In this document: positions 7,505 through 7,572 of the stretch, piece by piece
Position numbering within the stretch: the stretch's first letter is position 1
Layout: every line of letters starts with the position of its first letter
From: Eledone cirrhosa
Lineage: Eukaryota
Assembly (NCBI GenBank): GCA_964016885.1
Contig: OZ024758.1
Coordinates: 16,430,001-16,494,000 of the forward strand
Length of the DNA: 64,000 nt
Direction of reading: 5' to 3'
Translations under genes and position numbers: made by a program
Notes under the pieces: model-generated
What the model was told of the DNA's origin: nothing
The model's database searches: none
What the model saw: the letters and a program-made list of their open reading frames with translations, nothing else

Positions 7505-7572
7505 AAAGGACGTAAAATAAGAAAATATTTAAAAAAAAAAAAATTTTGTTAGTTGATATATTAAATTATCTA
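7505..7572. mobile_element. Miniature insertion made of the two termini of the 54-63 kb array
   Basis: AAAGGACGTAAAATAAGAAAATATTT (reverse complement of the array right end, ~62985-63008) joined to GTTAGTTGATATATTAAATTATCTA (reverse complement of the left end, 53982-54006), inside (TA)n. Confidence 0.8.

What the first reader, a model, noticed from the sequence alone, without database searches (positions are those of the whole stretch)
7505..7572. 68-bp insert made only of the two outer ends of the 9-kb array, 46 kb away
Seen: the same two breakpoints (CCTTTATA and ATTATCTATA) and the same divergent geometry, but only ~25-40 nt copied per arm. Inference: the two priming sites are preferred positions on the template RNA, and arm length can range from tens of nt to ~6 kb. 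This argues the array is a retrotransposition product rather than ordinary satellite expansion.
Basis: partly seen in the sequence, partly recalled or inferred. Interest (0 to 1): 0.75.

Follow-up and report, generated by a model that had tools for sequence, protein, structure and literature searches.

The report
Smallest copy of two-armed ribozyme retroelement
This 68-base stretch is the smallest copy found of a young, non-coding jumping repeat that carries a predicted self-cutting RNA motif and lands in TA microsatellites as two back-to-back arms starting at two fixed points, likely because a Penelope-type reverse transcriptase copies one RNA from both ends of a DNA break and sometimes stutters out new microsatellite as it starts.

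Summary
7506-7570 is a 42-nt arm starting at site E2 joined to an inverted 24-nt arm starting at site E1, inside (TA)n: the same outer ends as the 9-kb array. It is not a daughter of that array: its A/T tract differs from all 16 array copies and matches other genomic copies, and no flanks are shared. Both belong to a dispersed family: a 561-nt unit with a type I hammerhead motif, 569 exact E1 and 237 exact E2 junctions with (TA)n, against 0 and 7 at two control ATATA sites. Of 90 two-armed insertions 89 pair E1 with E2; both arms share one sequence variant; 6 of 230 inner ends stop at the predicted ribozyme cut. This is a non-autonomous Penelope-like element (non-LTR retrozyme); two internal start sites are the known Penelope 'tail'. 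About 0.5 such mini copies are expected from the arm-length spread; one is found. New here: in a sister subfamily E1 ends carry (CT)6 or more in 210 copies against 13 unexpanded, while internal units keep (CT)2, pointing to telomerase-like stuttering at initiation. No autonomous partner or RNA was found.

The parts
7410..7505 (.). (TA)48 target tract; its last ATATA is shared with the E2 start
7506..7547 (+). E2-primed arm, 42 nt (cDNA sense on +); T3-A13-T4 tract variant also seen in L084 and L045/L064, in none of the 16 array copies
7547..7570 (-). E1-primed arm, 24 nt (cDNA sense on -), 1-nt microhomology (T) at the inner junction
7571..7582 (.). (TA)6 target tract on the E1 side
53984..60286 (+). 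E1-primed arm of the 9-kb array, about 11 units of 561-609 nt (length varies in the A/T tract)
60284..63007 (-). E2-primed inverted arm of the array, about 4.8 units; inner junction at monomer positions 496/519 with AAAA/TTTT microhomology
61118..61199 (+). One of 16 copies of the type I hammerhead motif (RNA sense): stem I ACUUC/GGAGU, CUGAUGA at 61123, long stem II, GAAA, palindromic stem III, predicted cut GUU^GGAG between 61194 and 61195
   Evidence: run-off at this site in other copies
53938..53983 (+). Left copy of a 46-nt match with 63008-63053; possible target-site duplication (18 or 46 nt, ambiguous because the flank is itself periodic)
63008..63053 (+). Right copy of the possible target-site duplication

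Best explanation
The 68-bp insert is a two-armed copy of a dispersed, non-coding 561-nt hammerhead-motif repeat family, likely a primary minimal insertion made in trans by a Penelope-like GIY-YIG/reverse-transcriptase enzyme that likely primes both cut ends of a (TA)n tract on one RNA, one end at site E1 and the other at site E2, 118 nt apart. Steps: (1) the unit is transcribed and cut at the hammerhead into monomers, probably circles (inferred; run-off at the cut site is shown in DNA); (2) the enzyme cuts both strands in (TA)n (inferred from Frangieh 2024; TA flanks shown); (3) each 3' end pairs with a UAUA stretch just 3' of a hairpin and is extended, one at E1, one at E2 (fixed sites and strict E1+E2 pairing shown; priming inferred); (4) the two cDNAs stop after anything from ~12 nt to ~11 turns and are joined, often through short complementarity (shown as junction pattern); (5) at E1 the enzyme can stutter and add dinucleotide repeats (inferred from (CT)n). 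In the insert both cDNAs stopped within 45 nt; in the array they ran about 11 and 5 turns.
For: Fixed starts: 569 and 237 exact junctions vs 0 and 7 at control ATATA sites; 18 of 18 arrays chosen by internal sequence start at E1/E2; 67 of 77 ribozyme-anchored arm ends across at least four subfamilies. Pairing: 89 of 90 two-armed copies are E1+E2, 1 is E2+E2, none E1+E1. One template: arms of one element differ by 0.31% vs 2.3% between elements (n=55); in 44 of 55 no other element's arm is closer. RNA step: 6 of 230 inner ends lie at the predicted cut (0.8 expected, p=2e-4); in L043/L063 both arms stop there. Hammerhead: 7,576 genomic motif matches; stem II positions 3 and 6 covary (CG/TA/AT; TA/GC; 81 and 78 of 83 paired); a hairpin between E2 and E1 has two pairs with double changes in 11 and 14 of 29 sequences. 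Ready-made arrays: 63 of 66 variant sites in 38 multi-unit elements are singletons, none shared in register between arms. The genome holds RT plus GIY-YIG ORFs of 900-1100 aa. Short arms are normal: 7 of 178 are 50 nt or less, smallest total 120 nt; about 0.5 minis expected, 1 found.
Against: No autonomous element sharing these ends was found among 48 GIY-YIG loci of about 10,600 candidates. Rfam gave no hammerhead match; the isolated motif does not fold into the hammerhead shape (z -1.3); the first stem II pair is C.A in 79 of 83 variants; cleavage is untested. 52 sampled copies are single-armed, 10 of 77 ribozyme-anchored ends are not at E1/E2, and 7 partner ends were classed by eye. Both starts carry ATATA shared with the target, unlike the non-homologous initiation reported for the anole element. 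Singleton variants are also what post-insertion mutation gives, so circle versus linear template is not settled. Target-site duplications cannot be read in 80 of 80 pure-(TA)n cases.
Confidence: 0.8

Rival explanations
1. Same family and mechanism, but this copy inserted as a longer two-armed element and later lost its inside by a deletion between the inverted arms.
For: Long inverted repeats are deletion-prone (established knowledge); the junction lies in the A/T tract, where many inner junctions fall (29 of 89 E1-arm ends, 24 of 89 E2-arm ends); 1-nt microhomology fits either origin.
Against: Both arms match young variants letter for letter, leaving little time; the arm-length spread already predicts about 0.5 such copies and one is seen.
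Confidence: 0.12
2. One cDNA is primed at one site, folds back on itself and is copied, so that the second arm is a snap-back copy rather than a second priming event.
For: Inner ends of the two arms coincide within 25 nt (mod 561) in 15 of 48 copies against 4.4 expected, several as perfect palindromes; identical arms are expected.
Against: In the insert the arms share no sequence at all, so neither can be a copy of the other; either arm can be the longer (E1 longer in 54 of 89); a snap-back copy has no reason to stop at exactly the other fixed site.
Confidence: 0.04
3. A DNA transposon or MITE-like element with two different termini, the insert being an internally deleted, independently mobile form; arrays grow by unequal crossover.
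For: Two conserved ends in TA; a published model has retrozyme tandems amplifying locally (bioRxiv 10.64898/2026.07.22.740005, Discussion); 3 of 66 variants are shared by units of one arm.
Against: The insert's junction occurs once in the genome; the termini recur inside every unit; 52 copies have one end only, with scattered 5' truncation; ends pile up at the ribozyme cut.
Confidence: 0.03

Closest known systems
Metazoan non-LTR retrozymes (Cervera and de la Pena 2020, PMC7229834, part 2 of 6 read; Li, Clavereau and Pollet 2026, bioRxiv 10.64898/2026.07.22.740005, parts 1-3 of 5 read)
   Same: Non-coding tandem repeats, one type I hammerhead per unit, low GC, dispersed; unit length within the 51-972 bp range of the preprint; proposed to be mobilised by Penelope-like elements.
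   Different: The parts read do not describe inverted two-armed insertions, two fixed start sites or (TA)n targeting; RNA, circles and cleavage are shown there and not here; this motif has a long stem II and a C.A first pair.
Penelope/Poseidon element of the green anole, PAc (Frangieh et al. 2024, PMC11167929, parts 1-2 of 4 read)
   Same: Both strands of AT-rich DNA are cut and extended; reverse transcription starts at two internal RNA sites downstream of a hammerhead, and the stretch between them is the genomic 'tail'; predicted dimer.
   Different: PAc encodes its enzyme; its tail is 30-40 nt against 118 here; its starts lack homology to the target while E1 and E2 share ATATA with it; it reports no difference in start site between strands, whereas the two ends here use different sites in 89 of 90; it found no RNA ends at the hammerhead cut, whereas DNA copies here stop there.
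EN+ Penelope-like elements in general, including non-autonomous Chlamys such as MRC1 (Craig et al. 2021, PMC8557442, passages and section 10 read)
   Same: Tandem plus inverted 5'-truncated copies, a tail often at one end only, microsatellite targets, non-autonomous multicopy head-to-tail insertions.
   Different: Longer tail; no autonomous partner identified here; clade of the helper unknown.
Template slippage at 3' repeats of L2 LINEs such as UnaL2 (passage in review PMC3747384) and telomerase repeat addition (recalled)
   Same: Short repeats multiplied at the start of reverse transcription.
   Different: Here at an internal start site of a Penelope-type RNA, from a template of only (CU)2; not found described for Penelope-like elements in searches.

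Membership tests
Non-LTR retrozyme | Head-to-tail non-coding units of a few hundred nt | tested here: met
   561-nt unit, 16 copies in the array; 522-594 nt in sister subfamilies. The insert itself holds only 65 nt of a unit.
Non-LTR retrozyme | Type I hammerhead motif in each unit | tested here: met
   Core CUGAUGA, GAAA, GUU with stems I-III in all 16 units; covarying stem II; atypical C.A first pair and no Rfam match. Absent from the 65-nt insert.
Non-LTR retrozyme | Self-cleavage | tested here: inconclusive
   Indirect only: 6 of 230 inner ends at the predicted cut, p=2e-4.
Non-LTR retrozyme | Expressed linear and circular monomer RNA | not testable with these tools
   No RNA holder listed.
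Non-LTR retrozyme | Dispersed mobile copies | tested here: met
   Hundreds of young copies on many chromosomes.
Penelope-like element footprint | Tandem and inverted 5'-truncated copies with 3' ends outward | tested here: met
   90 two-armed and 52 single-armed copies.
Penelope-like element footprint | Two internal start sites giving a tail at one end | tested here: met
   E1 and E2, 118 nt apart, longer than the 30-40 nt described.
Penelope-like element footprint | AT-rich or microsatellite target | tested here: met
   (TA)n at both ends of all 90 resolved two-armed copies (by definition of the count); 4 others had a second arm not ending in TA.
Autonomous Penelope-like element | RT plus GIY-YIG open reading frame | tested here: not met
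   No PLE protein match in the window by tblastn; the array consists only of the 561-nt unit.
Penelope-like element footprint | Sequence shared with the pseudo-LTR of an autonomous partner | tested here: inconclusive
   None among 48 GIY-YIG loci examined of about 10,600 candidates.
MITE / DNA transposon derivative | Terminal inverted repeats and many identical short copies | tested here: not met
   The two ends are unrelated sequences; junction unique.

The most novel reading that the evidence does not exclude
A dimeric Penelope-type reverse transcriptase loads on one ribozyme RNA circle at two hairpin-flanked sites, assigns one site to each end of the DNA break, and at start-up adds repeats the way its sister enzyme telomerase does, so that these elements manufacture (CT)n, and perhaps (TA)n, microsatellites, including the targets for their own next insertions.
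Probability: 0.35. Interest if true: 0.75.

Novelty: new member of a known kind. Interest (0 to 1): 0.48.

Why it matters
How Penelope-like elements build their tandem and inverted insertions is named as an open question (PMC8557442). A young family with hundreds of readable copies gives hard rules to test in the existing in vitro system: two start sites used one per end, both arms from one sequence variant, stops at the ribozyme cut, and arms from about 12 nt to 6 kb. The 65-nt insert is useful because its arms share no sequence, which rules out fold-back copying for it. If the (CT)n stutter is real, it is a telomerase-like property of a Penelope enzyme and a direct source of microsatellites in a very microsatellite-rich genome. 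The two-armed footprint itself has been noted by this scan for other families of the same genome, so that part is not unique to this locus.

Tried and rejected
Daughter of the local array: rejected (tract variant; chance proximity). Segmental copy: rejected (no shared flanks). Mobile mini-element: rejected (1 genomic match; of 3 hits for short E2-to-E1 spacing only this one is a mini). Priming by ATATA microhomology alone: rejected (0 and 7 junctions at equally good sites; the 7 lie 10 nt from E1 and pair with E2). Rfam: only hairpin-type chance matches over the inverted junction, no hammerhead. Autonomous partner: not found; a 30-nt hit to the end of one PLE family is antisense and low-complexity. 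RNA evidence: no RNA holder listed; contigs of four runs show related pieces in three other coded organisms at low depth and nothing on ends. An empty or longer allele at the insert was not examined. First stem II count was out of register and was redone. Longer (TA)n on the primed side than on the truncated side: not significant (36 vs 26 nt, n=37, p=0.15), so TA synthesis by stuttering is unsupported. (CT)n as a pre-existing target: disfavoured (20 of 25 such copies have an E2 end joined straight to TA; 0 TA-GA-TA sandwiches among 3,421 TA tracts in 1.04 Mb), though 4 of the 20 have a CT run further out, one of them the end of another hammerhead family. (CT)n length does not track age (rho 0.21, p=0.40, n=19).

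Full report
Observation. The insert is real. After (TA)48 at 7410-7505 come 42 nt of the array's monomer starting at monomer position ~118 (site E2, AAGGACG...), then 24 nt of the reverse complement of the monomer's first bases (site E1, GATAATTT...), then (TA)6. The array at 53984-63007 is about 11 units forward from E1 and about 4.8 units inverted from E2. A 25-mer match is expected 2e-9 times in this window.

Relation to the array. The insert is a relative, not a daughter. Its tract after E2 reads T3-A13-T4; all 16 array copies read T8 or more, then A5-7, T, A(n), while L084 and L045/L064 elsewhere carry the insert's variant. Flanks share nothing. With 569 E1 ends in 3.0 Gb, about 7 pairs within 64 kb are expected by chance. 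The inner junction occurs once in the genome.

The family. The strand whose 3' ends face outward carries a type I hammerhead motif in every unit (window 61118-61199; read by eye). Rfam did not detect it, and the isolated piece folds otherwise. The motif matches 7,576 places in the genome. Among 83 distinct stem II variants, positions 2-7 are paired in 78-83, with CG/TA/AT at position 3 and TA/GC at position 6; position 1 is a C.A mismatch in 79. Circular monomers fold 3 to 7 standard deviations below 12 shuffles each, and both start sites mostly lie in unpaired linkers just 3' of hairpins. The hairpin before E1 shows double changes at two pairs in 11 and 14 of 29 sequences (related sequences, so these are few events).

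Exact (TA)n-E1 junctions number 569 and (TA)n-E2 junctions 237 (the E2 pattern misses a common variant). Two other ATATA sites in the monomer give 0 and 7. Two sets were chosen without looking at the ends. All 18 arrays found by internal sequence start at E1 or E2 (these are the youngest copies). Of 77 arm ends in 61 loci taken from the first 100 ribozyme hits, 67 lie at E1 or E2, 7 elsewhere and 3 are unresolved, across at least four subfamilies.

Pairing and template. I parsed 178 loci: 100 of 139 planned regions around the first 100 E1 and first 100 E2 hits, 60 loci returned by those searches, and the 18 above. After removing duplicates, 90 two-armed copies were resolved: 89 E1+E2, 1 E2+E2, 0 E1+E1. 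Seven partner ends were classed by eye, and E1 includes starts up to 10 nt off. Set aside were 52 single-armed copies, 8 cut by a locus edge or N, and 4 whose second arm did not end in TA. Arms of one element differ by 0.31% against 2.3% between elements (n=55), and in 44 of 55 no other element's arm is closer. In 38 multi-unit elements, 63 of 66 variant sites are singletons, 3 are shared within an arm, and none is shared in register between arms. This fits repeated copying of one unit, but post-insertion mutation gives singletons too.

Inner ends. Arms run from 12 to 3,668 nt, median 585; 7 of 178 are 50 nt or less; the smallest total in that set is 120 nt. From these frequencies about 0.5 copies with both arms under 45 nt are expected; a genome search for short E2-to-E1 spacing gave 3 hits, of which only this insert is a mini. 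Six of 230 inner ends fall at the predicted ribozyme cut against 0.8 expected (p=2e-4), and in L043/L063 both arms stop there. Outside the A/T tract the two inner ends lie within 25 nt of each other on the unit in 15 of 48 copies (4.4 expected), as expected if cDNA ends anneal through local inverted repeats. Target duplications cannot be read in 80 of 80 sampled copies; the window array has a 46-nt match across its ends inside a periodic flank.

Stutter at E1. In a sister subfamily the unit reads ...AATT-CTCT-ATATTT. Internal units keep (CT)2 in 17 of 17; termini in the loci held carry 5-42 copies in 22 of 23, a set that includes 20 loci fetched for being expanded. Unselected genome counts are 210 termini with (CT)6 or more against 13 with (CT)2; 3-5 copies were not counted. 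All 20 expanded loci fetched are termini followed by (TA)n. In 20 of 25 such copies the far end is E2 joined directly to TA, and no TA-GA-TA sandwich occurs among 3,421 TA tracts of background, so a pre-existing target is unlikely; 4 of the 20 do have a CT run further out. Length does not track age, and (CT)21 sits in a copy with 0.4% internal divergence. Three copies of the young lineage also end in (CT)9-11, one of them with only one CT in its internal unit. Repeat addition at initiation is the best reading; it is inferred. TA tracts are not significantly longer on the primed side.

Helper. The genome has about 10,600 GIY-YIG candidates, and RT plus GIY-YIG frames of 938 and 1,096 aa. None of the 48 loci examined shares ends with this family, so the helper is inferred, not identified.

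Comparison. Frangieh et al. 2024 (PMC11167929, parts 1-2 of 4) show a Penelope protein cutting and extending both strands of AT-rich DNA and starting at two internal RNA sites that define the tail. Craig et al. 2021 (PMC8557442, passages and section 10) describe tandem and inverted copies, tails at one end, (TA)n targets and non-autonomous multimers. Cervera and de la Pena 2020 (PMC7229834, part 2 of 6) and Li et al. 2026 (bioRxiv, parts 1-3 of 5) define retrozymes and tie them to Penelope pseudo-LTRs. UnaL2 slippage was seen as a passage in PMC3747384. Searches found no paper on this family, on twin priming by Penelope elements, or on stuttering at their start sites. The library lacks most subscription journals, and no supplements were read; those of the retrozyme and Naiad papers may list related sequences. 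Earlier AI notes report the same two-armed footprint for other families in this and other genomes, nothing on this sequence and nothing on stuttering.

Verdict. Real; a minimal copy of a new retrozyme family with a Penelope footprint. It works like a Penelope insertion and is a retrozyme by DNA anatomy, with cleavage, RNA and helper untested. Interest is moderate, carried by the strict E1+E2 rule and the (CT)n stutter.

Noticed in passing
window 7100-7400: A different hammerhead-motif repeat (CTGACGA...GAAACTAGTA at 7115) ends directly at the (TA)48 tract that holds the insert; a third family's remnant lies at about 7790-7900 on the minus strand. The site is a cluster of Penelope-type insertions.
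   Followed up: partly
L338-L357, L225, L230, L241, L271, L272: (CT)5-42 at E1 termini, absent from internal units; candidate repeat addition at initiation.
   Followed up: yes
L260, about 20-60 nt upstream of the E2 end: Another hammerhead family also ends in (CT)19 then (TA)n, so the stutter may not be confined to this family.
   Followed up: no
L120:552-1003 and L130:2227-2468: Foreign DNA of about 450 and 240 nt lies between the two arms; the L120 piece is A/C-rich and looks like part of another element or transcript captured by template switching.
   Followed up: no
L172:4900-5385: About 480 nt of scrambled repeats of the A/T hairpin region at an inner junction, as if copying stuttered there many times.
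   Followed up: no
L165 (G000 C3:56251152-56255489): The single E2+E2 two-armed copy among 90.
   Followed up: no
L166: Two identical 950-nt two-armed copies 2,034 nt apart; a local duplication or an assembly duplicate.
   Followed up: no
window 59864-59960: The last unit of the forward arm has a partly duplicated A/T tract; the A-run of that tract varies from about 14 to over 60 nt between otherwise identical units.
   Followed up: no
window 33220-34441: Homogeneous 29-nt minisatellite, 42 copies, 96% matches.
   Followed up: no
L316, L318, L319, L331: At least four distinct RT plus GIY-YIG Penelope-like families in this genome, copies 91-98% alike at protein level, several with their own hammerhead variants (one with UUGAAAA in place of CUGAUGA).
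   Followed up: partly
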